A stretch of 44,301 nucleotides of DNA, taken from the NCBI GenBank assembly GCA_028702045.1, contig JAQVPP010000001.1:1-44301 (forward strand), read 5' to 3'. A program made the position numbers and the translations under genes. Below, piece by piece: positions 3 through 32,791 of the stretch (its first letter is position 1; every line of letters begins with the position of its first letter). The notes beneath the pieces were generated by a model, which was given only the letters and a program-made list of their open reading frames with translations, searched no databases and was not told where the DNA came from. Origin of the DNA: Minisyncoccota bacterium. GTDB taxonomy: Bacteria > Patescibacteriota > Minisyncoccia > UBA6257 > JAKLIH01.

Positions 3-548
3 ATTTATTTTCATGAAATAAAAAATGCATATAAAAGCCACAATATGAAAATATGTAAAAAACCTGAAGTGTCCCCATGAGGCTTAATTGATTTAGCTAT
101 TCATCACAAAAAATCATTAAATACAAAGAATAAGAGTGATAAAGATGTTATTTATTGTATTTTTGACGTAGATCAATTTTTCCAAGAAAATCAAAAAGAG
201 TTTTTAAAAGGGATAAAAAGGGCTCAAGAAAATGAAATATATTTAATTTTCTCTAATAAATGTTTCGAGTTATGACTATTACTACATTTTCAAGAAATAT
301 ATAACTGTATGAGTGCTAAAGAATTAGAGAGGCAACTAAAAAAATATATTCCTAAATATCATAAAGGATATAATATTTACCCTGAAATTAAAGATAAAAT
401 GCATAACGCAATAAGAAATAATAAAAAAATTTTTAATATTGATTATACAAAAATTGATTGGCAACAATGGTTAAGTGATAAAAGTAATCCCTCAACAAAT
501 TTTTATCAAATAATTGATAAAATACAAAAAATGCACGAAGAAAATTAA
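3..548 (+). CDS. RloB-like protein, C-terminal part (5' end outside window)
   Basis: Frame-3 ORF is open from the window edge. In-frame TGA at 78-80 and 273-275. The segment IYLIFSNKCFEL[TGA]LLLHF matches the RloB-family SNxCFE-W-LLLHF signature as I recall it. Ends in TAA at 546-548. Confidence 0.55.
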
Positions 549-1363: not shown

Positions 1364-1765
1364 ATGTTTTTAAAATTATATTTTATAGCCTTACCTATCT
1401 TTTTATTAATTGACGGTTTATGACTAGGCTTAATTGCTAAAAATTTTTATGCAAAACAAATAGGTTTATTAATGAAGACAAACATTAATTGAGTTTCTGC
1501 TTTTCTTTTCTATTTACTATTTATTATTGGTTTAGTTGTTTTTGTCTTAATTCCTGCCATAAAAAATAATTCATGGCAAAATGCCCTACTTTTAGGCTGT
1601 TTACTGGGCTGTATATGTTATGCAACATATGATTTGACTAATTTAGCTACATTAAAAAATTGACCAATTATAGTCACAATAGTAGATATTATCTGAGGAA
1701 CAGTATTAGGAGGAACAGTCTCTTTAGTAACATATTTTTTAGCTAAAACAATTTTTAAACTTTAA
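1364..1765 (+). CDS. small multi-pass membrane protein (DUF2177-like)
   Basis: Single frame with 4 in-frame TGA; ends in TAA. Hydrophobic throughout. YDLTNLATLKN[TGA]P and VDII[TGA]G resemble the DUF2177 pattern as I recall it. Confidence 0.5.
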
Positions 1766-1770
1766 GTATT

Positions 1771-2253
1771 ATGCAAGAAAAGATTAATGATATTTTCAAA
1801 TATTCAAAAAATAAAAAAAGACTTCTAGAGCTTGAAGAAAGTAATAAATTTGTTTTTCATGGATCTTATGGCGACTTAAACATATTACACCCCAAACAAG
1901 GATATAATTTAAATAAAAACACTAATGTAATGGAAAAAGACGGAGATCCAGCAGTGTTTGCTACTAATTTTTCAGAAATAGCCATATTTAGATCACTAAT
2001 TAATAAGCAAAACATAAAAGGACCAAGTTGTAGTTATTTTGGTATAAAAAAGGGTCATCTTTATTTTGCAGCAACACAAAATTTAATAGATGCCGCTAAA
2101 GATAAAACAGGTAAAATATATGTGCTAGATAAAAATAAATTTCAACCTCGCAACAACATAGAGGTAGTAAGTTATCAGTCTGTTTCACCTATTGAGGCAG
2201 TAGAAGTTGATTTTAATGATCTACCTCAAAACATAGAAATATTACAACGTTAG
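1771..2253 (+). CDS. hypothetical protein
   Basis: 160-aa ORF with no in-frame TGA and no motif I recognise. Confidence 0.5.
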   Translation: MQEKINDIFKYSKNKKRLLELEESNKFVFHGSYGDLNILHPKQGYNLNKNTNVMEKDGDPAVFATNFSEIAIFRSLINKQNIKGPSCSYFGIKKGHLYFAATQNLIDAAKDKTGKIYVLDKNKFQPRNNIEVVSYQSVSPIEAVEVDFNDLPQNIEILQR

Positions 2254-2319
2254 ACACCGTAAAAAGACATCTATATCTTTTTATGATAAGATGTATACAA
2301 TAAAAATAAAAAACACATT

Positions 2320-2700
2320 ATGATATTGATTCCTATTACACTTATTTTAGTTATATTAGTTATCTATTTTTTCCCTCAGATTCAGAAATTTTGAATCATG
2401 CAAAAAAGAATACAATCAATTAATAAAGTAGGCTTATTCCCTAAAAAAGAAATTAGTAAGATGATAAATTTCATATCAGCCAAACCAGGGGTAGATAGAT
2501 GTGAGGCAGTAAAAAGATTACTCAAGGCACATATAGAAATATTAACTACTCAATCTGAAAAAGAAGAAGGAGATAACGAAATGGCCTTTAACCTTTTCTT
2601 TTCAGAAAATGGAGAAATAAAAGTAGTACCTTTAAGTGAAGAAGAGAAAGAGGCTTTTAAGGCGGCTAAGAAAAATAATAAAACAAAAACAATAATTTAA
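2320..2700 (+). CDS. hypothetical protein with N-terminal transmembrane segment
   Basis: ATG at 2320 is in frame with track ORF 2398-2700 through a TGA at 2392-2394. The N-terminus MILIPITLILVILVIYFF is hydrophobic. Confidence 0.45.
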
Positions 2701-2705
2701 AAATT

Positions 2706-3608
2706 ATGAAAACAGACATAAAATTTAAAATTAAAAATGAAAATGATTATTTAACAATATATACAGATAGACCAGAAGTTATTTGTGGTGTAAATTTTGT
2801 ATATATACCACAAAATCATAAATTAATTGATAAATATAAAAATAAGATTAAAAACTATAACGAAGTTGCAGAGGCTAAAAAAGATATTAAAATAGAAGGT
2901 TTTAATCTTATTAATCCACTTACAAATACAGTAGTAGATATTTGACTAAGTAATGATAAAAAAGATGTTGTAATGGCAGTTCCAGCTCATAATGATGATG
3001 ATTTTGAGTTTGCAAGAAAACATAATATCAAAATGATTCCTGTAATAGAGCAAATCACAGGAACCCCAAGAGAAAATGAAAAATATAAACAAAGTATAGT
3101 GGCTGTGGTCAGAAACCCAAAAACAAATAAATATTTAACCATTAATTGGGGCAAAGATTTAGGTGGAAGACTCTTAATAGGTGGATCAATTAATGAAAAC
3201 GAAACACCACTAGACTGTGCTGTAAGAGAAATTAAAGAAGAAACTGGGTATAAAAATCTTAAATTTATTCAAGAAATATTTCCGATTAATCATCATTATT
3301 TTGCTTTTAGTAAGAATCAGGCCCATAACATAGATTGTACTGGTTTTTTATTTGATTTAATTGATGAAGAAAAAACAGAACAAAATCTAGATGAAGAAGA
3401 AAAATTTAAAGTTGAATGAGTTGAAAAAAGTACCATACAACAAGAAATTAAAGATGAGCTTCACAGTACTGTTTTTAAAAATTGTTTAAGCCCTAGGGCC
3501 TACACAGGAGATGGCAAAATAATAAATTCAGGAATTTTAAACGGTTTAAATAAAGAAGAAGCAACTAACTTAGTTATCAAATTTTTAAAAGAAAATGAAC
3601 AATGTTAA
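2706..3608 (+). CDS. LeuRS CP1 (editing-domain)-like protein with an inserted Nudix hydrolase domain
   Basis: Track ORFs 2706-2945 and 2973-3419 plus a tail to TAA at 3606-3608 share one frame, joined through TGA at 2943 and 3417.
- N-terminal part: YLTIYTDRPEVICGVNFVYIP...NPLTNTVVDI[W]L...VVMAVPAHNDDDFEFARKHNIKMIPVIEQ parallels LeuRS TTRPDT...IPVWAA...AVMAVPAHDQRDYEFA...IKPVI.
- Middle: Nudix box GGSINENETPLDCAVREIKEETGY.
- C-terminus: AYTGDGKIINSGILNGLNKEEA parallels LeuRS G-L-NSG-FNGL.
- No HIGH or KMSKS catalytic motifs. Confidence 0.7.
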
Positions 3609-4041
3609 TTTTTTTAAAAAAATTATATATAAATTTATTAAAATATACTGAAAAGTATTTAAACCACAAACCTGTGGTGTAAAAGTAATTATCGAAAATA
3701 AGGGAAAGCTTGTATATATAATTAATAATTATGGATCTAAATTAAAAAATTTACCAGGTGGCAAGATAGAAAAGAATGAAAACCCAATACAAGCAGGAAT
3801 TAGAGAAGTGAAAGAGGAATTAGATATAGATATTTTTGATATTCAAAATATAGATCTAATATTTTCAAATAAAGAAGGCAAAAGAGATACAATATTTATT
3901 ATATATGCTAAAACAAAAGCAGAAACCTTTAATATTGATAAGTTTGAAATACTAGAAGCAAATTGGTTTTCTTTAAATGATTTATCTGGTTTTTGTACAA
4001 CTGCACAAAAAATTTTAAAAATATTTTTAAAAAATAACTAA
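3595..4041 (+). CDS. Nudix hydrolase
   Basis: ATG at 3595 is in frame with track ORF 3808-4041 through a TGA at 3649-3651. Nudix box GGKIEKNENPIQAGIREVKEELDI. Overlaps the previous gene by 14 nt. Confidence 0.7.
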
Positions 4042-4067
4042 TAAAAACTCTTACAATAAATATTTAT

Positions 4068-4406
4068 ATGAACCATATTATGAAATTAGACCCAAAACCA
4101 TTTTATAAAATTAAAAACGGGCAAAAAGATACAGAATATCGTTTAAATGATAAAAAAAGAAAATCTATAAAAGTCGGGGATACAATAACTTTTTACAAAA
4201 GACCAGAAGAAAAAGAAAGAATAAAAGTTATAGTTGTAGGATTAAAATATTATGAGACTTTATTAGAAATGTTTACAGATAATTTTGAAAAAAATTTAAA
4301 AAATGAACATGTAAGTCCCCAGAAAGTTGTTGAAAACTTTTCTTATTATTCTGAAAAAGATATAAAAAGATATGGATGTGTGGCTATTAATATAAAATTA
4401 AAATAA
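4068..4406 (+). CDS. ASCH domain protein
   Basis: 112 aa. The N-terminal pattern KPFYKIKNGQKDTEYRLNDKKRKSIKVGDTITF is typical of ASCH/PUA-like domains. Confidence 0.6.
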   Translation: MNHIMKLDPKPFYKIKNGQKDTEYRLNDKKRKSIKVGDTITFYKRPEEKERIKVIVVGLKYYETLLEMFTDNFEKNLKNEHVSPQKVVENFSYYSEKDIKRYGCVAINIKLK

Positions 4407-4410
4407 AATT

Positions 4411-4887
4411 ATGGATGTAGATATAAAGAAAGCTAAAACAACAGACTTAAAAAGAATCCAAGAGTTAAGCTCAATGCTTTTACAAAAAGAATATGAAGAT
4501 TATCCAGATAAATATATAAATTTAGACTGACCTCTTAGTGAGGAATGCACACAATCTTTTAAAAACAGTATTTTAAGTGACGAGTGTTGTACGCTAATAG
4601 CTGTTGTAAAAAATAATGTAGTTGGACTTTTAAGTGGAGGTATTACTAAAGGAGAGGTATATAGAAATTTGCCTAAAACAGCAGAAGCAGGAATTATTTT
4701 TGTTTTAGAAGAATATAGGTCTCAAGGCATAGGTCAAAAATTATTTGATGAATTTTTTAATTGATGTAAGGCAAATAATGTTAAAAAAATTAAACTAGAA
4801 GTATCGGCTCAAAATGAAAAAGCCATTAAAATATATAAAAAAAATGGGTTTTGAGAATATACTTTGATTATGGAAAAAGATTTATAA
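4411..4887 (+). CDS. GNAT family N-acetyltransferase
   Basis: Single frame with 3 in-frame TGA. Acetyl-CoA motif RSQGIGQKLFDEFF, then EVSAQNEKAIKIYKKNGF. Absent from the track only because the TGAs cut it into short pieces. Confidence 0.7.
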
Positions 4888-5950: not shown

Positions 5951-6502
5951 ATGGAAGATTATATCCCAATAACAAAACTTAACGATTTTATTTTTTGTCC
6001 CCTTTCTTTATATTTTAGATCTTGTTATAACAAGTTTAAAGAAAATCTTTTTTATCAAGAGAAAATAATAGAGGGTAAAATGGAACATGAAAAAATACAC
6101 CAAGATAAATTAAAAAATAGGTGAAAATTAATCAATTTTCCAGTTTATAGCTCTTACTATAAATTATTTGGAAAAATAGATGAATATGATGAAATAACCC
6201 AAGAATTAATAGAGTATAAAAATAACATAAACAAAGTTTATGATGGATATAAAATGCAATTATATGCACAGGCAAGATGTCTTGAAACAATGGGATATCA
6301 AGTTAAAAAAATAAAACTAAAATCCATCCAAACAAAAGAAGAAATAGAAATTGCTTTGCCATCCCGTACGGAAATGAAAAAATTTGAAAAATTAATTGAA
6401 AATATTAGATATTATGATATTTTTAAATACTTAAAATACCAAAATAAATGTCAAAATAAATGTCGTAAATGTATATACAAAGAACTTTGTAACGATGATT
6501 AG
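5951..6502 (+). CDS. cas4: CRISPR-associated exonuclease Cas4
   Basis: - One in-frame TGA (6122-6124).
- N-terminal Cys (FCPLSLYF).
- GKID and IEYK, i.e. the D...ExK nuclease core.
- C-terminal Cys cluster CRKCIYKELC.
- Lies directly upstream of cas1-cas2. Confidence 0.8.
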
Positions 6503-6504
6503 TT

Positions 6505-7464
6505 ATGTTAACACTACCAGATTTTAAAGAAAAACAAATTTTATTTATAAAAGGCAACAATAATTTAGAAAATACATTAAAGTTTTCTAATGAAAATTTA
6601 ATATTTTATAAAAATGGGAAAAAACATAGCCAATTATCATGTTATAAAATTTTAGCTATATTTTTGTATGGAGATTTTTCTGTAACAACTGTCTTATTAA
6701 GAAAATTTGATGAATATGGAATAGCAGTTTTCTTTTTAAAAAATAATTTAATGTCATATTGCTATTTTAATTTAGGATTAGGAAGTAATTATCTATTAAG
6801 AATTAAACAATACAAGCAGGAAAACGAAATAAATATTGCTAAAAAAATTATTAGAAATAAAATATATAACTCGCATTTACTCCTCAAAAAATACAACTAT
6901 TGCAACAACTCATATAATTTAGACGATATTTTCTCTAAAATTACCAAGGCAGAGGATTTAAAAACATTATTAGGCATTGAGGGCAGTTTTTCTAGAAATT
7001 ATTTTTTAAATTTATTTTGTAATAAAGAAGTAAATCTGAATTGGCGAGGCAGACAACCTAGATTAAAACAAAATATGGAGAATGTTTTGTTAGATATAGG
7101 ATATACTTTTCTGTTTAATTTTATAGATTCAATTTTAAATTTATTTGGATTCGATACTTATAAAGGGTTTTGCCATCAAGTTTTTTTTAAAAGAAAATCA
7201 CTATCTTGCGATATTATGGAGCCTTTTAGGTGTATTATTGATGAAACACTATATTTAATGTTTAAAAATAAAGAAGTTAATTCATATGATTTTGATATAA
7301 AACAAAAAATTTATTCATTAAAATACAATTGTAGTAAAAAATATTGCCAAGCTTTTTTACAAGCAATTTTAAAAAATAAAATAGAAATTTATAAGTATAT
7401 TAGAAATTTCTATTACTATATATTAAACGATAAAGAAGATTTTAATAAATTTATTTTAAAATAA
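6505..7464 (+). CDS. cas1: CRISPR-associated endonuclease Cas1
   Basis: 319-aa ORF packed tightly between cas4 and cas2. Size and position are canonical for a type V-A adaptation module. Confidence 0.85.
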   Translation: MLTLPDFKEKQILFIKGNNNLENTLKFSNENLIFYKNGKKHSQLSCYKILAIFLYGDFSVTTVLLRKFDEYGIAVFFLKNNLMSYCYFNLGLGSNYLLRIKQYKQENEINIAKKIIRNKIYNSHLLLKKYNYCNNSYNLDDIFSKITKAEDLKTLLGIEGSFSRNYFLNLFCNKEVNLNWRGRQPRLKQNMENVLLDIGYTFLFNFIDSILNLFGFDTYKGFCHQVFFKRKSLSCDIMEPFRCIIDETLYLMFKNKEVNSYDFDIKQKIYSLKYNCSKKYCQAFLQAILKNKIEIYKYIRNFYYYILNDKEDFNKFILK

Positions 7465-7468
7465 AAAT

Positions 7469-7750
7469 ATGATTATAGTTTCATACGACATTACTAATGA
7501 CAAATTAAGGTCTCAATTTTCCAAACTGTTAAAAAAATATGGAAGAAGATTACAATTTTCAGTATACGAAATTAAAAATAGTGCACGAATTTTAAATAAT
7601 CTTATTGTAGAAGTAGAGTCTCGTTATAAACCAAGATTCTGTAATTTAGACAGTATTATTATTTTCCATTATTGCGAATCTTGTAGTAAAAAAATAAAAA
7701 GATATGGCTATGCAGTTCATGCAGAAAAAGAGCTAGTATTTTTTGAATAA
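7469..7750 (+). CDS. cas2: CRISPR-associated endoribonuclease Cas2
   Basis: 93 aa. The N-terminus MIIVSYDIT has the conserved Asp in strand 1. Lies immediately before the array leader. Confidence 0.85.
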   Translation: MIIVSYDITNDKLRSQFSKLLKKYGRRLQFSVYEIKNSARILNNLIVEVESRYKPRFCNLDSIIIFHYCESCSKKIKRYGYAVHAEKELVFFE

Positions 7751-12972: not shown

Positions 12973-15900
12973 ATGAACACAAAATATTTTTCAGATATTT
13001 TTAACAAATATCAAGTAAGTAAAACCATTAGGTTTAGTTTAAAGCCTCAAGGAAGAACGAGGCAAACCTTGGAGGACAACAATATTATACCTAAAGACTC
13101 TTTAATATACAAAAGTTATTTACAAACAAAACCATATCTTGATGACATCCACAGGAAAATTATTCAACAAGGTTTATCAAAAATAGAGATTGAGATTTTT
13201 AAACCAATTACAGAATTATATTATCAGAAAAATATAAAAACTAATAAACAGGACAAAGAATGAAAAAGCACGAGAATACAAACATGCAAAGAAATTAATA
13301 GATATTTTCAAGAAGAAAAAGATATTTTAAAAAAGAAATATGACTCAAAGAACAAAGATTTTATTTGTTCTGGTAAAGTTTTAAATTATCTAAAGGATGA
13401 ATACCCCGCAAATAAAAGTAAAATTTTTGAGCAACAAGGGTTCCCCAGTTTATTTATCGAATACCAAGGTAAACACAAATATATATTTGATGTATTTGAT
13501 AAAATAACAACATATTTAATTCAATTTAACAAAAACAGAGAAAATCTTTATGAAAATGGAGATAAACATTCTTCAGTAGCATCAAGAGTGCTCAATAATT
13601 TTATTACTTTTTTAAATAATATCGACAAATATAAAAAATTACAAACTATAGAAGAATTAAAATTTTCCTCGGAAGAAAAAGATATTTTTCAAATAGAAAA
13701 TTATGTTTTTGCTTTAACTCAAGATCAAGTAAATAATTACAATAAAAATGTAGGAATATTAAACAAAAAAATTAAAGAAGCACGAGATAAAAATAAAAAA
13801 CTAAATCAAGAAAATTTTATAAAATCAAATTATGTTTTGCTAACTACTTTAGATAAGCAAATTTTAGGTAAAGTGAGTGCGGAAGACAACACAATAAATA
13901 ATAACCAAGAATTAAAAAAAGAGTTTGAATTATTTATACATAAAAGCAATATTTTTAAAGACGATTTTAAAAAATTTATAGAAAATTTCAAAAAACACAT
14001 TTTTATTAAAGAATATGAACATATTTTTTTGTCAAAAAAAATTATAAATACAATTTCTTATAAGTGATTCAAAAACCCTGAAAGTTTTGAATTTGCATTA
14101 CCCCAATCTTCGTCAAGCAAAAATAAAGAATACCCGCATCTTAAATCAATGATTTCTTTGTCAGAAATACAAAATGCATTAAACAATAATACACAAGTAG
14201 AAGGAAAGATATTCAAAGACAAGTATTATGAAGATCTATTCAAAAATCAAAATACTTTAAATAATAAAGATAATTATTTTGATCAATTTTTAGAAATATG
14301 GGAATATGAAGTAAATAATTTAATCCAAAAAACTCAAGATAACAATATAGAGATTGACTGAAATATTTTTAATCAATGCACAAGAAAAGACAAAAAATAT
14401 CAAAACGAAGTAGGAAAAATGAAAACTACGATAGATAATTTTTTAAGAGTTTATCAAATGGCTAATTATTTTCATATTTCACAAAAAAATAAATTAGCCT
14501 TTTCAGACTATTTTTACGGAGAGTTTTATTCTTTTTTTAATGAGTATAGGTTTAACGAATTCTACAATGCAATTAAAAATTTTTTAACAAAAAAAGAAAA
14601 TCAAGAGAATAAAATTAAATTAAACTTTGATTGTGGAACACTTTTAAGCGGGTTTGATAAAAATAAAGAAAAGGATAATCTAGGGATAATTCTAAGAAAA
14701 AAACAAAAATACTACCTAGGTATTTTGGTTAAAGGATATACTTCTTGTTTTGAGGATAAAAACTTGCCAAAAGAAGGAACAGATTATTATGAAAAAATGA
14801 CTTATAAACTATTCCCAGGTGCATTTAAAATGATTCCAAAGATTGCATGGGCCCCAACAAATCAAAAGCTTTTTAATCCATCTGATCAGCTTAAAACATT
14901 AAGGCAAGAATACAAAGAATATCAAGATGCAAAAAAAACCCAGAAAAACAACAAAATTCAATTTAGCGCAACGAAATTAGCAAAACTTATAGAATATTAT
15001 CAAAAAGTTTTACAACTTAGTGGGCATCAATCAGAGTTTAATTTACAATGAAAAGATCCTGCTGAATATTCAGGATTAGGTGAATTTAACAATGAGATTG
15101 ATAAGCAAGGTTATAAAATTAATTTTGATCAAAAAATTAACAGTGATTATATAGATAAATTAGTAGAAGAGGGTAAGCTATATTTATTTCAGATATATAC
15201 TAAAGATTTTTCAGAAAAATCTAACAAAATAAATAAAAATTTAAATACTTTGTATTTTTTAAATTTATTCTCAGATGAAAATATTAAAAATAAAGAGAAA
15301 AAAATTAAATTGTCAGGTAATGCAGAAATATTTTTTAGGCCAAAAAACAAAAAACCTAATAAAAAAATTGATAACAAGGGCAATTCTATTGTAGACCATA
15401 AAAGATATGCAGAAGATGCATTTTTATTACATTTATCTATTGTTTTAAATAACAATGTTCCTTCTCCTCATGCAGGACTTGAAAAATCGTTTAATCAAAA
15501 TATTAATGAAAAAATTATTGGAGACAAAAATGTTAACATCATTGGAATAGATAGAGGAGAAAAACACTTATTATATTACAGTGTAATTAATCAAAATCAA
15601 GAAATATTAGAACAAGGTAGTTTGAATACTATTAATGGTAAACCTTATTTTGATTTATTAAATCAAAGAGAAAAAGAAAAACTAGGACAAAAGCAAAGTT
15701 GATTTGCCATAGGAAACATTAAAGATTTAAAAAAAGGGTATTTATCCGAAGTTGTTAAAAAAATATGTGATCTAGTGGTTCAATATAATGCCATTGTGGT
15801 TTTAGAAAACTTAAATATGAGATTCAAGCAAATTCGTGGGGGGATTGAAAAAAGTGTTTATCAACAATTTGAAAAAGCATTAATAGATAAATTAGGATAT

Positions 15901-16857
15901 TTAGTTTTTAAACAATTAAAAGCTAGTGAAGCAGGGGGGGTTATTAATGGATACCAACTTGTGGCCCCTTTTGAATCTTTTGAAAAAATGGGAAACCAAA
16001 CAGGCATCTTATTTTATACTCAAGCAAATTATACATCAATTACAGACCCTCTAACTGGTTTTAGAAAGAATATTTATATTAGTAATTCTTGAAGTCAAGA
16101 AAAAATAAAAGAAAACATCTATAAATTTACTAGAATTTATTGAGATGATATAGAAAAAAGCTTTGTATTTACTTATAATCCAAATGATTTTGTTAATCAA
16201 AAAATTAAAAAACAAAAGTTTAAATATCGAGATTGTAGTGTATATTCTAAAATACCCAGGATAAGAAGATATAGAAATGAGAAAGATCATTGAGAATATG
16301 AAGTAATAGACTTGAATAAAGAATTTAAAAACTTATTTGAAAGTTGAGGAATAAATTATAAAGCAGATAATATAGTCGAAGAGATTAAGAATAATGAAAA
16401 AAATTTAACAGGCAAAAAAACAATTTTTTTACAAAATAGTAGTATAAATAAAAATTTCTTTAACCAATTTATATATTTATTTAATTTAATATTACAAATA
16501 AGAAATTCTTTTTCCAAAAAATATATTATAGATATTGATAAAAATACAGGAAAAGAAACAATAACACAAAAGGGAGAAGATGTTGATTTTATAGCATCTC
16601 CAGTTAAGCCTTTCTTCTCAACTTTTGCTCAAGATTCTAAAAGTCAAATAATTTCTCCGCTAAATTTACAATCTATTAAAGAAAGAATTATAAGTAATGA
16701 CAAGGACAGAATAGCGAGGGAATTTAATGGAGACGCCAATGGTGCTTATAATATAGCTAGAAAAGGAATAATTCTATTAAACAAAATACGTGAAAACACC
16801 GAAAAACCAGATTTATATATTTTTAAGGAAGATTGAGACAAATTTAATAATCAATAA
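12973..16857 (+). CDS. cas12a: Cas12a (Cpf1) type V-A effector, 1294 codons, 10 in-frame TGA
   Basis: - Six track ORFs (12973-16092) plus a tail to TAA at 16855-16857 are all in frame 1.
- The only interruptions are TGA at 13261, 14065, 14359, 15049, 15700, 16090, 16141, 16291, 16345 and 16834.
- N-terminus KTIRFSLKPQGRT.
- FNKNRENLY motif.
- KLFPGAFKMIPK (PAM-interacting region).
- GKLYLFQIYTKDFS.
- RuvC-I IGIDRGEKHLLYY.
- RuvC-II AIVVLENLNMRFK.
- Nuc LQIRNS.
- RuvC-III GDANGAYNIARKG. Confidence 0.93.
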
Positions 16858-18688: not shown

Positions 18689-19996
18689 ATGGAAAACAAA
18701 ACAGAAATATTAATCAATTTAGCAAAAAAAAGAGGCTTCATAAATCAATCATCTGAGATTTATGGAGGATTTTCCAGCTCATATGATTATGGTCCACTAG
18801 GATCTCTTCTAAAAAATAAATTAAAAGAACTTTGGCTAAATAATATGATTAAAAGTGATCTAGACATAGTTCCTATTGATTCAGCTATCATCATGTCTCC
18901 TAAGGTTTGAGAAGCATCAGGCCATGTCTCTAATTTTGTTGACAGTCTAGTAGAATGTAAGGAATGCCACAAAAGATTCAAACAAGATGATGTAAAAGAT
19001 AGTTGTCCTGTATGTGATGGAGAACTATCAGCTCCAAAGAAATTTAATATCTTAATGAAAACATATATTGGTCCAGTAGAGGATAGTGCTAGTCTTGCTT
19101 ACCTAAGAGGTGAGACATGCCAGGGTATTTTCACTAATTTTAAGTGAATCAAATCATCCATGAGGAAAAAAATACCTTTTGGTATAGCTCAAATAGGTAA
19201 GGCATTTAGAAATGAGATAACTCCAGGTAACTTTACTTTCAGAACAAGAGAGTTTGAGCAAATGGAGATGCAATATTTTGTTAACCCAGACAAAGCAGAC
19301 ATATATTTTGATCTTCTTAAACAAAAAAGAATGCAGTTCTATATTGACCTTGGATTTAAAAAAGAAAACCTAAGATTCAAAGATCATGATCATTTAGCTC
19401 ACTACTGTAAAAGGGGATGTGATATAGAGTATAACTTTCCTTTTGGCTGACAAGAGATAGAAGGTATACATAACAGAACTGACTTTGATCTTACTCAACA
19501 CTCTCTATATAGCAAAAAAGATTTACAGTATTTTGACGAAGATAGCAAAGAATCATACACCCCTTATGTGATAGAAACATCTTGTGGTTGTGATAGAGTA
19601 TTACTTGCTATCCTATATGATGCCTTAGACGGAGAAAATTTCTCTTTCCCATATATCTTAGCTCCATACAAGGTAGCAGTACTTCCTCTTGTAAAAAATA
19701 AAGAAAAAATTGTCAAAAAAGCAAAACAAGTATATACTCAATTAAAAGACAATTTTATGGTAGATTATGACCAAACAGGGTCAATAGGTAAAAGATATGC
19801 CAGACAAGATGAAATAGGTACCCCATATGCAATAACTATAGATTTCATGTCTTTAAAAAATAATACAGTAACTATCAGAGACCGTAAAACAAAAAAACAA
19901 TCACGCATTAAAATTAATCAATTAAATGATTACCTTTTAAATAATAAAAAGTCATCTTTTATACAAAAAATATATAACTTATTATGCAAGAAATAA
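18689..19996 (+). CDS. glyQS: glycine--tRNA ligase (class II, alpha2 type)
   Basis: Three track ORFs share one frame, joined through TGA at 18908, 19145 and 19448. Motifs: [67 protein letters not shown]. Confidence 0.9.
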
Positions 19997-31726: not shown

Positions 31727-32791
31727 ATGAATTTATCAGTAGGAATAGTAGGATTGCCTAATGTAGGTAAGTCAACATTATTTAACACATTAACCAAAAA
31801 CAAAGCAGATATTGCTAATTATCCATTTTGCACAATAGACCCAAACATAGGTATTGTAGAAGTACCTGATTTTAGACTAGACAAATTAAGTTCTTTTAGT
31901 AATTCAGCTAAAACTATACCAGCTATAGTTAAGTTTGTTGATATAGCTGGACTTGTTAAAGGAGCAAATAAAGGAGAAGGATTAGGTAATCAATTTTTAT
32001 CTAACATTCGTGAAACTCATTCTATCATATATGTATTACGTGCTTTTAAAAATGAAAAGATTTTAAATGTCCTGGACAAAGTAAATGTAATTGAGTCTAA
32101 AGAAATACTAGATACAGAACTTGCTTTAAAAGATCTAGAGACAATAGAAAAAAGACTTTTCTCTTTAAAAAAGGATGCTAAAAGAGGTAACAAAGACGCT
32201 ATTAAAGAAGTAGAGGTATTAGAGAATATAGAGAGTAAGCTAAAAGAAGGGAATTTAATCAGAGATCTAGATCTATCAGATAATGATAGACAAATACTTA
32301 AGCAATACTCTTTCTTAACAGCTAAACCTTGTCTTTTTGTCCTAAATGGCAAAGATGATGAGGTGGATCCAGAAATAAAAGAATATTTTACTAAAAATAA
32401 TTTCAAGTATATCATCATAGATATTCGTGATGAGTATGATATTGCTAACTTATCTGATTTAGAAAAAGAAGAGCTAGGCATAGAAAATAAATCAGAACTA
32501 GATATACTTATTAGAGAATCATACAAGCTTCTAGATTTGATTACTTTTTTCACAACAGGACAAGATGAGACAAGGGCCTGAACAATCAAAAATAATACAA
32601 AAGCTCCAGACGCAGCAGGTGTAATTCATAATGATTTTAAAGAAAGATTTATTAAAGCAGATACTATTAATTGGCAAACACTAATTGATTCTGTATCTTG
32701 AGAAAATGCTAGAAGCTTAGGATTAATCAGATCAGAAGGCAAGGAATATTTAGTACAAGATGGAGATGTTCTAGAAATTAAACATAATTAA
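31727..32791 (+). CDS. ychF: redox-regulated ATPase YchF
   Basis: Track ORF 31727-32581 continues in frame through TGA at 32579 and 32699 to TAA at 32789-32791. Motifs: GIVGLPNVGKSTLFN, FCTIDPN, VDIAGLVKGA, and C-terminal GKEYLVQDGDV. Confidence 0.9.

What the first reader, a model, noticed from the sequence alone, without database searches (positions are those of the whole stretch)
2706..3608. Free-standing LeuRS CP1 editing-domain homologue with a Nudix domain inserted into it
- The 300-aa product starts at the beginning of the LeuRS CP1 domain (TDRPEV in place of TTRPDT).
- It runs through the MAVPAHNDDDFEFARKHNI...PVIEQ segment and is then interrupted by a complete Nudix fold (GGSINENETPLDCAVREIKEETGY).
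- It resumes with the LeuRS segment AYTGDGKIINSGILNGLNKEEA and stops.
- There are no HIGH/KMSKS catalytic-core or anticodon-binding parts, so it is not a LeuRS.
- The threonine-rich editing motif is altered (T to D and T to V), while the universally conserved Asp before YEF/FEF is retained.
- Stand-alone editing modules are known for Ala, Pro and Thr systems (AlaX, YbaK/ProX, ThrRS-ed). I am not aware of a stand-alone CP1 module, or of a CP1-Nudix chimera.
Basis: partly seen in the sequence, partly recalled or inferred. Interest (0 to 1): 0.7.

Follow-up and report, generated by a model that had tools for sequence, protein, structure and literature searches.

The report
Stand-alone LeuRS editing-domain relic carrying Nudix
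This is a real 300-residue gene, read with TGA as tryptophan, made of a leucyl-tRNA synthetase editing domain with a Nudix hydrolase inserted in it. It looks like a module released from synthetases that carry the same insert and kept for its Nudix half, not as a new proofreading factor.

Summary
Window 2706-3608 (+) is one 300-aa ORF, provided two in-frame TGA codons are read as Trp, which the data support. Residues 1-115 and 263-300 form a LeuRS CP1 editing fold. Residues 116-262 are a complete Nudix domain with a perfect Nudix box, inserted in a CP1 surface loop. The 44-kb window holds no other LeuRS part.

The architecture is not unique. More than 50 species of gut Bacilli and Candidate Phyla Radiation (CPR) bacteria have full-length LeuRS with the same Nudix insert at the same CP1 site. 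I found no paper describing this.

Stand-alone CP1-Nudix genes arose from these synthetases several times. Every stand-alone copy has damaged editing motifs, while the Nudix box is intact in 14 of 16. At equal Nudix divergence their CP1 half is far more diverged (41% against 71% identity).

In one genome a stand-alone copy sits directly upstream of a normal leuS whose CP1 looks swapped.

Best reading: a Nudix pyrophosphohydrolase on a vestigial CP1 scaffold. Trans-editing is unlikely but not excluded. The substrate is unknown.

Side finding: this Paceibacteria-type CPR genome reads TGA as Trp.

The parts
2706..3608 (+). CDS of the 300-aa stand-alone CP1-Nudix protein (ATG 2706, TAA 3606-3608), read with TGA = Trp
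   Evidence: An identical protein, P0001, exists in an independent Logan assembly. AF2 model: pLDDT 94.8, pTM 0.87.
2706..3050 (+). N-terminal part of the CP1 (LeuRS editing) fold, aa 1-115
   Evidence: PF13603 stretch 4-129. Aligns to E. coli and S. pneumoniae CP1. Foldseek TM 0.75-0.77, normalised to the isolated CP1 domains.
2763..2780 (+). Degenerate threonine-rich editing motif, TDRPEV, in place of TTRPDT (aa 20-25)
   Evidence: All 50 LeuRS-embedded homologues keep TTR[PCA]DT.
2943..2945 (+). In-frame TGA, codon 80, read as Trp
   Evidence: This column is Y, W or F in 62 of 68 family members.
2985..3011 (+). AHNDDDFEF (aa 94-102). The first Asp of AHDxRD has become Asn and the second, universally conserved Asp (D99) is kept. 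The YGTGA loop that precedes this motif in LeuRS is deleted.
3051..3491 (+). Inserted Nudix domain, aa 116-262
   Evidence: PF00293 stretch 128-248, E=2.9e-13. Best PDB matches: 2azw (TM 0.81 normalised to the target; profile E=5.5e-11).
3183..3251 (+). Nudix box GSINENETPLDCAVREIKEETGY, an exact match to GX5EX7REUXEEXGU (aa 160-182)
   Evidence: Read from the sequence. R, E, EE and G are invariant or nearly so in alignments A1 and A3.
3417..3419 (+). In-frame TGA, codon 238, read as Trp
   Evidence: This column is W in 67 of 68 family members.
3492..3605 (+). C-terminal part of the CP1 fold, aa 263-300. It ends where a LeuRS would continue into the catalytic core.
   Evidence: Aligns to the last 30-35 residues of isolated CP1 domains. 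In full-length homologues the sequence continues with K.NY+LRDW...
3595..4041 (+). Context: a second, separate Nudix gene (148 aa) that overlaps the 3' end of the CP1-Nudix gene by 14 nt
   Evidence: PF00293 E=8.8e-13. Only 27% identical to the inserted Nudix.
4068..4887 (+). Context: an ASCH-domain gene (4068-4406) and a GNAT acetyltransferase gene (4411-4887) on the same strand
   Evidence: No + strand terminator-like site lies between 900 and 6000.

Best explanation
The gene encodes a stand-alone module that was released from a leucyl-tRNA synthetase of the kind that carries a Nudix hydrolase inside its CP1 editing domain. It now most likely works as a Nudix-type nucleoside-polyphosphate pyrophosphohydrolase, related to the NudB / RppH / Ap4A-hydrolase group. 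Its role is probably house-cleaning of nucleotides or nucleotide-capped molecules.

The CP1 half survives mainly as the structural frame into which the Nudix domain is threaded. It no longer acts as a canonical post-transfer editing site for mischarged tRNA-Leu.

Shown:
- The domain anatomy.
- The derivation from Nudix-bearing LeuRS.
- Repeated independent origin of stand-alone copies.
- Decay of the editing motifs.
- Conservation of the Nudix catalytic box.

Inferred:
- That the Nudix domain is catalytically active.
- Its substrate class.
- That CP1 is only a scaffold.
For: 1. Both domains are real and form a confidently predicted two-domain fold.

2. Full-length LeuRS of about 940-1200 aa with the Nudix at the same CP1 site occurs in about 55 species-level genomes, in gut Bacilli MAGs and in CPR groups such as Saccharibacteria and Paceibacteria. 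An exhaustive search gave 227 cluster representatives at E<1e-10.

3. Stand-alone copies are scattered among LeuRS clades in the tree: P0020 with L038 (bootstrap 96), P0150 with L050 (100), and P0002 with P0004 (83) inside the gut-Bacilli clade. There is also one old clade made only of stand-alones. P0124 still has the LeuRS N-terminus (..LVEFPYPSG) fused directly to CP1, which is the mark of an internal deletion.

4. All 50 embedded copies keep TTR[PCA]DT and YGTGA[IV]MAVPAHD.RD. All 16 stand-alones have lost at least one of these elements. The Nudix box is intact in 14 of 16.

5. At 60-70% Nudix identity, LeuRS-LeuRS pairs are 71% identical in CP1, but stand-alone-LeuRS pairs only 41%. The window protein against L005 is 67% identical in Nudix and 36% in CP1.

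6. In L001 the stand-alone gene lies 16 bp upstream of a complete 806-aa leuS. That leuS is 78-88% identical to Nudix-bearing relatives in its N- and C-terminal parts but only 45-50% in CP1. This indicates a CP1 swap in which the old CP1-Nudix was kept as a separate gene.

7. There is a house-cleaning theme. A CPR LeuRS (P0160) carries both a Nudix and a Ham1 (ITPase) insert. In L058 a Ham1 gene lies directly upstream of the stand-alone CP1-Nudix.

8. The closest Nudix relatives are 2azw, Ap4A hydrolases, NudB and RppH.
Against: - No biochemistry exists for any member, and Nudix substrate class cannot be read reliably from sequence. All NCBIfam matches fall far below their curated cutoffs.
- The window protein keeps the conserved Asp (D99), one of the two Thr, and the MAVPAH core, so a residual or altered deacylase activity is not excluded.
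- CP1 is retained in full length in every stand-alone copy. That could mean it still binds something, such as the tRNA acceptor end or LeuRS, rather than being only a scaffold.
- The NJ tree has weak support at many nodes, including the placement of the window protein (bootstrap 11-38).
- I could not inspect model coordinates to see whether the two active sites face each other.
Confidence: 0.55

Rival explanations
1. It is a free-standing trans-editing factor. The CP1 half hydrolyses mischarged or otherwise aberrant aminoacyl-tRNA-Leu in trans, perhaps with altered amino-acid specificity, and the Nudix domain is an accessory.
For: - The CP1 fold is intact.
- The conserved Asp that anchors the substrate amino group in LeuRS is kept in the window protein and in 11 of 16 stand-alones.
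- Recombinant CP1 domains solved as separate crystal structures (2ajg, 3o0a, 4k47) show that the domain folds on its own.
Against: - T248 has become D and T252 has become V, the GTG loop is deleted, and AHD has become AHN.
- The same kinds of loss occur in all 16 stand-alones but in none of 50 embedded copies.
- From my knowledge of E. coli LeuRS mutagenesis, T247/T248 and T252 are needed for catalysis and specificity in editing.
- The CP1 half is under visibly relaxed or changed constraint.
- In L001 a full LeuRS with its own CP1 lies next door.
Confidence: 0.15
2. It is a Nudix enzyme aimed at the tRNA or at the synthetase. The remodelled CP1 still docks the tRNA acceptor end or LeuRS and presents a nucleotide-linked substrate to the Nudix site. 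Candidate substrates are Ap4A or aminoacyl-adenylate by-products, or a 5'-triphosphate or NAD cap on the neighbouring 5' end. This would be the same job the insert does inside LeuRS.
For: - The insert sits at one fixed site of CP1 in more than 50 LeuRS.
- A related Nudix is inserted in ProRS of DPANN-type archaea. Together with the LeuRS inserts this suggests a link to synthetase chemistry.
- pTM of 0.87 predicts a fixed arrangement of the two domains.
- RppH and Ap4A hydrolases are among the nearest Nudix relatives.
- CP1 is never lost from the stand-alones.
Against: - Other LeuRS carry Nudix copies at other positions, as well as Ham1 and alpha/beta-hydrolase inserts. That fits hitch-hiking of general house-cleaning enzymes better than a CP1-specific mechanism.
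- CP1 pocket residues are not conserved among the stand-alones.
Confidence: 0.15
3. It is a decaying relic with no function: a leftover of a duplicated or replaced leuS that has not yet been deleted.
For: - Stand-alones arise from LeuRS by deletion, as P0124 shows.
- The editing motifs are decayed.
- Stand-alone branches in the tree are long.
Against: - The 300-codon frame is open although a stop is expected about every 14 codons (P about 2e-10).
- The Nudix box is perfect.
- Two Trp codons have become TGA without breaking the frame, so the gene has been maintained under this genome's code.
- A deep clade made only of stand-alones, at about 20-35% identity to the window protein, keeps its length and its Nudix box.
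- pLDDT is 94.8.
Confidence: 0.08
4. It is a piece of a split LeuRS whose other pieces are encoded elsewhere and assemble with it.
For: Split LeuRS is known (Aquifex aeolicus alpha/beta; chains named 'Leucyl-tRNA synthetase subunit alpha' appear). The rest of this genome was not available.
Against: - No LeuRS N- or C-terminal parts lie anywhere in the 44-kb window.
- The editing motifs that every working LeuRS in the set keeps are lost here.
- The L001 homologue coexists with a complete leuS.
Confidence: 0.03

Closest known systems
CP1 editing domain of bacterial leucyl-tRNA synthetase (Pfam PF13603; structures 2ajg, 4k47, 3o0a)
   Same: - Same fold and clear sequence homology over both halves.
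- The MAVPAH core and the conserved Asp are kept.
   Different: - It is free-standing, not embedded between the two halves of the Rossmann fold.
- The T-rich motif is degenerate (TDRPEV), the GTG loop is deleted, and AHD has become AHN.
- A 145-residue Nudix domain is inserted in a surface loop.
Full-length LeuRS with a Nudix domain in CP1. This architecture is common in gut Bacilli and CPR MAGs (e.g. L003-L062, P0007, P0026). I found no description of it in the searchable literature.
   Same: - Same Nudix subfamily at the same insertion point.
- The window's Nudix is 50-67% identical to those of gut-Bacilli LeuRS.
   Different: - Those are complete synthetases with intact editing motifs.
- The window gene has no catalytic core or anticodon-binding domain, and its CP1 half has diverged to 36-44% identity.
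Free-standing trans-editing proteins (AlaX, YbaK/ProXp, ThrRS-ed, DTD)
   Same: An autonomous homologue of a synthetase editing domain, encoded as a separate gene.
   Different: - Those keep the catalytic residues of the parent editing site and are shown deacylases. Here the parent's catalytic motifs are eroded and a second enzyme domain is inserted.
- The 2024 review PMC11295145 shows CP1 only as a synthetase-embedded editing domain, separately from the free-standing editing enzymes.
Small Nudix hydrolases of the NudB / RppH / Ap4A-hydrolase type (2azw, 1f3y, 3i7u, 2o1c)
   Same: - The Nudix fold and a perfect GX5EX7REUXEEXGU box.
- They are the best profile and structure matches.
   Different: - All matches are below the curated family cutoffs, so it is not an equivalog of any named enzyme.
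- It is threaded into another domain rather than free.

Membership tests
LeuRS CP1 editing domain (PF13603) | Profile match above the curated cutoff, and the CP1 fold | tested here: met
   93 bits against a cutoff of 25, E=2e-26. Foldseek TM 0.75-0.77 normalised to the isolated CP1 domains 2ajg and 4k47.
LeuRS CP1 editing domain (PF13603) | Threonine-rich motif TTRPDT, including the specificity Thr (T252 in E. coli numbering) | tested here: not met
   The window has TDRPEV: the second Thr is Asp and the T252 equivalent is Val. All 50 embedded homologues keep TTR[PCA]DT.
LeuRS CP1 editing domain (PF13603) | YGTGA loop before MAVPAHD | tested here: not met
   The loop is deleted..DIWLSNDKKDVVMAVPAHN.. 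against ..SDYVLxxYGTGAIMAVPAHD...
LeuRS CP1 editing domain (PF13603) | Universally conserved Asp of AHDxRD (D345 in E. coli numbering) | tested here: met
   D99 in AHNDDD. The preceding Asp (D342 equivalent) is Asn.
LeuRS CP1 editing domain (PF13603) | Hydrolysis of mischarged tRNA-Leu | not testable with these tools
   This needs a deacylation assay.
Leucyl-tRNA synthetase (TIGR00396) | Rossmann catalytic core with HIGH and KMSKS, and an anticodon-binding domain | tested here: not met
   72.5 bits against a cutoff of 548. Only model positions 228-377 of 843 are matched. No N- or C-terminal LeuRS parts occur in the window.
Nudix hydrolase superfamily (PF00293) | Profile match and the Nudix fold | tested here: met
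   50.4 bits against a cutoff of 21.1. 2azw matches at TM 0.81 normalised to the target.
Nudix hydrolase superfamily (PF00293) | Nudix box GX5EX7REUXEEXGU | tested here: met
   G160-SINEN-E166-TPLDCAV-R174 E175-I-K-E178 E179-T-G181-Y182.
Named Nudix subfamilies (MutT, NudB, RppH, NudC, ADPRase, Ap4A hydrolase) | Score above the curated equivalog cutoff | tested here: not met
   Best for the window protein are NudB at 29.9 bits (cutoff 103), MutT at 27.1 (cutoff 97.9) and RppH at 19.7 (cutoff 118).
Free-standing aminoacyl-tRNA trans-editing factors | An autonomous editing-domain homologue that keeps the parent's catalytic residues | tested here: inconclusive
   It is autonomous. The catalytic residues are only partly kept. 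Activity is untested.
Known anti-phage defence proteins (PADLOC) | A specific model match | tested here: not met
   Only a weak, generic Nudix match to the candidate family PDC-S07, E=4.6e-5.

The most novel reading that the evidence does not exclude
The CP1-Nudix module, inside LeuRS and as this free protein, could be a new kind of synthetase-linked quality control. The CP1 fold would dock the tRNA acceptor end or an adenylate, and the Nudix site would cleave a nucleotide-linked species there. Candidates are Ap4A or aminoacyl-adenylate by-products, or a 5'-triphosphate or NAD cap on the tRNA. The stand-alone copies would be trans-acting versions with a re-tuned pocket.
Probability: 0.12. Interest if true: 0.85.

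Novelty: new variant of a known kind. Interest (0 to 1): 0.6.

Why it matters
- It would be the first natural free-standing homologue of a class I (CP1) synthetase editing domain to be examined.
- It exposes an apparently undescribed and widespread architecture: LeuRS with a Nudix domain, and sometimes a Ham1 domain, built into it. This occurs in reduced-genome bacteria, both CPR and gut Bacilli. A related Nudix insert occurs in ProRS whose closest relatives are from DPANN archaea.
- The repeated release of the module, each time with a decayed editing site and a conserved Nudix site, is a clear case of an inserted domain outliving its host enzyme.
- It warns against reading editing-domain homology as editing function.
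- It also gives a concrete target for biochemistry: what Nudix activity is important enough to be wired into an essential synthetase?

Tried and rejected
It worked with the 6-sequence alignment A2.
- The window's own genome is not among the GTDB representatives (best hit 51% identical), so its leuS could not be located.
- NCBI holds only TGA-free proteins of this MAG, so a LeuRS protein record is unlikely to exist there.
- P0003, the closest LeuRS fragment with a Nudix, comes from a different run (SRR29267488), not from the window's organism.
- The first bootstrap script timed out. It was redone with a fast distance calculation.
- The promoter and terminator scan was uninformative: promoter-like sites are at chance level and there is no + strand terminator.
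- PADLOC gave only a generic Nudix match, so a defence-system reading was dropped.
- The neighbouring Nudix gene is not a recent duplicate of the insert (27% identity).
- Five literature searches found nothing on LeuRS-Nudix or on natural stand-alone CP1.
- I considered code 25 (TGA = Gly), which is the known CPR recoding, and rejected it. TGA sites fall on invariant Trp columns.
- I could not obtain model coordinates, so the relative orientation of the two active sites is unknown.

Full report
**1. The observation**

With the bacterial code, window 2706-3608 (+) splits into ORFs of 79 and 148 aa, because two in-frame TGA codons lie at 2943-2945 and 3417-3419.

Reading TGA as a sense codon raises the summed length of listed ORFs of at least 80 aa, over all six frames, from 9.8k to 15.5k residues. 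Window genes hold 54 in-frame TGA against 20 TGG, and no gene ends in TGA.

TGA means Trp, not Gly:
- Codon 238 of this gene falls on a column that is W in 67 of 68 family members. Codon 80 falls on a column that is mostly Y, W or F.
- The two TGA sites of the window's YchF are W in 113/113 and 110/113 homologues.
- They align to W and to an aromatic residue in solved YchF structures. A GlyRS TGA aligns to the W of VWxASGH.

An open frame of 300 codons has a probability of about 2e-10 at this base composition.

A separate Logan assembly of run SRR22315503 is 100% identical over 3139 bp, covering window 1438-4576, so the junctions are not an assembly chimera.

**2. Anatomy**

- Pfam gives PF13603 (LeuRS editing domain) at E=2e-26 in two stretches, and PF00293 (NUDIX) at E=2.9e-13 over residues 128-248.
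- Against solved structures, residues 4-120 and 261-296 align to the two ends of isolated CP1 domains (E. coli 2ajg, S. pneumoniae 4k47). Those ends are only 3-6 residues apart in the chains, so about 145 residues are inserted in a CP1 surface loop.
- The Nudix box G160-x5-E-x7-REIKEETGY fits GX5EX7REUXEEXGU exactly.
- An AlphaFold2 model built on 15 family members has pLDDT 94.8 and pTM 0.87.
- Foldseek finds LeuRS CP1 domains (TM 0.75-0.77 normalised to the target) and the Nudix protein 2azw (TM 0.81).
- There is no catalytic core. The leuS model TIGR00396 is matched only at positions 228-377 of 843, at 72.5 bits against a cutoff of 548.
- tblastn with the N- and C-terminal parts of a LeuRS finds nothing else in the 44-kb window.

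The gene lies in a run of same-strand genes. Two small unknown ORFs come first. A second Nudix gene overlaps its end by 14 nt and is only 27% identical to the insert. An ASCH gene and a GNAT gene follow.

**3. The family**

The first homologue search returned many LeuRS fragments with the architecture catalytic core + CP1 + Nudix, several of them from CPR bacteria.

The exhaustive search found 826 cluster representatives at E<1e-3, and 227 at E<1e-10. Most of the best are proteins of 900-1200 aa matched over query residues 4-296 in a single stretch.

A scan of one genome per species returned about 55 loci in which the match lies inside a complete leuS of about 940-1200 aa. These are in gut 'Bacilli' MAGs (goat, rabbit, mouse, rumen; GC 25-32%, standard code) and in Saccharibacteria, Paceibacteria, Magasanikbacteria, Kaiserbacteria and other CPR groups.

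So a Nudix domain in CP1 is a regular feature of LeuRS in these lineages. I found no paper that mentions it.

Stand-alone genes are rarer:
- the window gene;
- L001 (276 aa);
- L058 (about 291 aa);
- about a dozen more cluster representatives of 273-354 aa with the same N- and C-terminal limits.

P0150 may instead be a fragment of a LeuRS. It starts within the ..NWIG.. motif and has nearly intact editing motifs.

**4. What separates stand-alone from embedded copies**

- All 50 embedded copies keep TTR[PCA]DT and YGTGA[IV]MAVPAHD[EDQ]RD[YF].FA.
- All 16 stand-alones have lost at least one element. The T252 equivalent (E. coli numbering) is V, L, M, I or A in 12 of them. The GTG loop is usually gone. 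AHD is AHN, AHI or AHS in 10 of them.
- The Nudix box is intact in 14 of 16 stand-alones.
- At matched Nudix divergence (60-70% identity), LeuRS-LeuRS pairs are 71% identical in CP1, and stand-alone-LeuRS pairs 41%. At more than 70% Nudix identity the figures are 73% and 37%.
- The window protein is 50-67% identical to gut-Bacilli LeuRS in the Nudix half but only 35-44% in the CP1 half.

From my knowledge of E. coli LeuRS mutagenesis, T247/T248 and T252 are needed for catalysis and specificity in editing, and D345 anchors the substrate amino group. The window protein keeps only T247 and D345.

**5. Origin**

In a neighbour-joining tree the stand-alones are scattered among LeuRS clades:
- P0020 with L038 (bootstrap 96);
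- P0150 with L050 (100);
- P0002 with P0004 (83), nested in the gut-Bacilli clade;
- the window protein with P0121, next to L003 and L004, with weak support.

There is also one deep clade made only of stand-alones.

P0124 still begins with the LeuRS N-terminus (..LVEFPYPSG) joined directly to CP1, which is the mark of an internal deletion.

In L001 the stand-alone gene lies 16 bp upstream of a complete 806-aa leuS that has no Nudix. That leuS is 78-88% identical to Nudix-bearing relatives in its N- and C-terminal parts, but only 45-50% in CP1, which is no closer than to distant CPR enzymes. The simplest reading is that CP1 was swapped and the old CP1-Nudix module was kept as its own gene.

**6. 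Function**

The Nudix half is what selection preserves.

Its nearest relatives are the uncharacterised 2azw, Ap4A hydrolases, NudB and RppH. All are below the curated family cutoffs, so the substrate is open.

Two observations point to nucleotide house-cleaning:
- A CPR LeuRS (P0160) carries both a Nudix and a Ham1 (ITPase) insert. Other LeuRS carry extra Nudix copies or an alpha/beta-hydrolase.
- In L058 a Ham1 gene lies directly upstream of the stand-alone gene.

A related Nudix is also inserted in a small family of ProRS whose nearest relatives are from DPANN archaea. This fits either of two readings: essential synthetases serve as carriers for house-cleaning domains in reduced genomes, or the insert is linked to synthetase by-products such as Ap4A.

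I therefore rank the readings as follows:
- A Nudix pyrophosphohydrolase on a vestigial CP1 frame: 0.55.
- A trans-editing deacylase: 0.15.
- A Nudix aimed at the tRNA or the synthetase: 0.15.
- A functionless relic: 0.08. This is made unlikely by the open frame, the perfect Nudix box, the adoption of TGA for Trp, and the old stand-alone clade.
- A split LeuRS: 0.03.

**7. Limits**

- The rest of this genome was not available. It is an NCBI MAG labelled Candidatus Pacebacteria, and its YchF is closest to Paceibacteria-type CPR proteins. Whether it has a normal leuS is therefore untested.
- The tree is a distance tree with weak support at many nodes.
- Model coordinates could not be inspected.
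- No activity has been measured for any member.

**8. Verdict**

The anatomy is right. The uniqueness of the chimera and the implied editing role are not.
- This is a new variant of known kinds: the Nudix hydrolase superfamily and synthetase editing-domain paralogues. It opens a wider, apparently undescribed phenomenon.

Noticed in passing
whole window (e.g. YchF 31727-32791, GlyRS 18689-19996, Cas12a-like 12973-16857): The contig is a CPR bacterium. NCBI labels it Ca. Pacebacteria, and its YchF is nearest to Paceibacteria-type proteins. It reads TGA as Trp: 54 in-frame TGA, no TGA stops, and TGA on invariant W columns. Known CPR recoding is TGA to Gly (PMC8629427). A 2026 paper lists TGA to Trp in only four phyla, none of them Patescibacteria (PMC13462651). 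NCBI appears to have annotated this MAG with code 11, because only TGA-free proteins are on record. No tRNA-Trp(UCA) lies in the window.
   Followed up: partly
L003-L062 (e.g. L003:9299-12148, L025:9317-12124, L030:9212-12124): Full-length LeuRS with a Nudix domain inserted in CP1 is widespread in gut Bacilli MAGs and in many CPR groups, with all editing motifs intact. I found no literature on it.
   Followed up: yes
proteins P0160, P0143, P0145, P0130, P0122; L029:4958-8572: Some CPR LeuRS carry further inserts: a Ham1/ITPase domain (P0160, residues 984-1167), an alpha/beta-hydrolase (P0143), two or three Nudix stretches, some of them before CP1 (P0145, P0130, P0122), and a tandem Nudix (L029).
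   Followed up: partly
proteins P0075, P0394-P0397, P0454: A small family of ProRS (641-643 aa) has a related Nudix domain inserted between the anticodon-binding domain and the C-terminal domain. Their nearest Nudix-less relatives are ProRS of Nanoarchaeota and Woesearchaeota.
   Followed up: partly
L001:10001-13268: A stand-alone CP1-Nudix gene lies immediately upstream of a normal 806-aa leuS. The CP1 of that leuS is as distant from its close relatives as from CPR enzymes (45-50% identity), while the rest of the protein is 78-88% identical. This is an apparent CP1 module swap. The T-rich motif of this LeuRS is also unusual (TTCIET).
   Followed up: partly
L058:9191-10738: A Ham1-family gene lies directly upstream of a stand-alone CP1-Nudix gene in a Clostridia MAG. 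There is no leuS within 10 kb.
   Followed up: partly
window 45-548, 5951-7750 and 12973-16857: There is an RloB/AbiLii-like gene at the left end. ORFs that I judged Cas4-, Cas1- and Cas2-like from their sequences lie at 5951-7750. A 1294-aa ORF that looks Cas12a-like from its N-terminal sequence and holds 10 in-frame TGA codons lies at 12973-16857. The Cas assignments and any CRISPR array were not tested.
   Followed up: no
window 3595-4887: Downstream of the finding lie a second Nudix gene (its box ends ..REVKEELDI, with Asp in place of the usual Gly), an ASCH-domain gene and a GNAT acetyltransferase gene, all closely spaced on the same strand. Whether they act together with the CP1-Nudix protein is unknown.
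   Followed up: no
L050 (whole contig, 6934 bp): The contig is a near-perfect palindrome, with the same LeuRS mirrored on both strands. This is probably an assembly artefact in that MAG.
   Followed up: no
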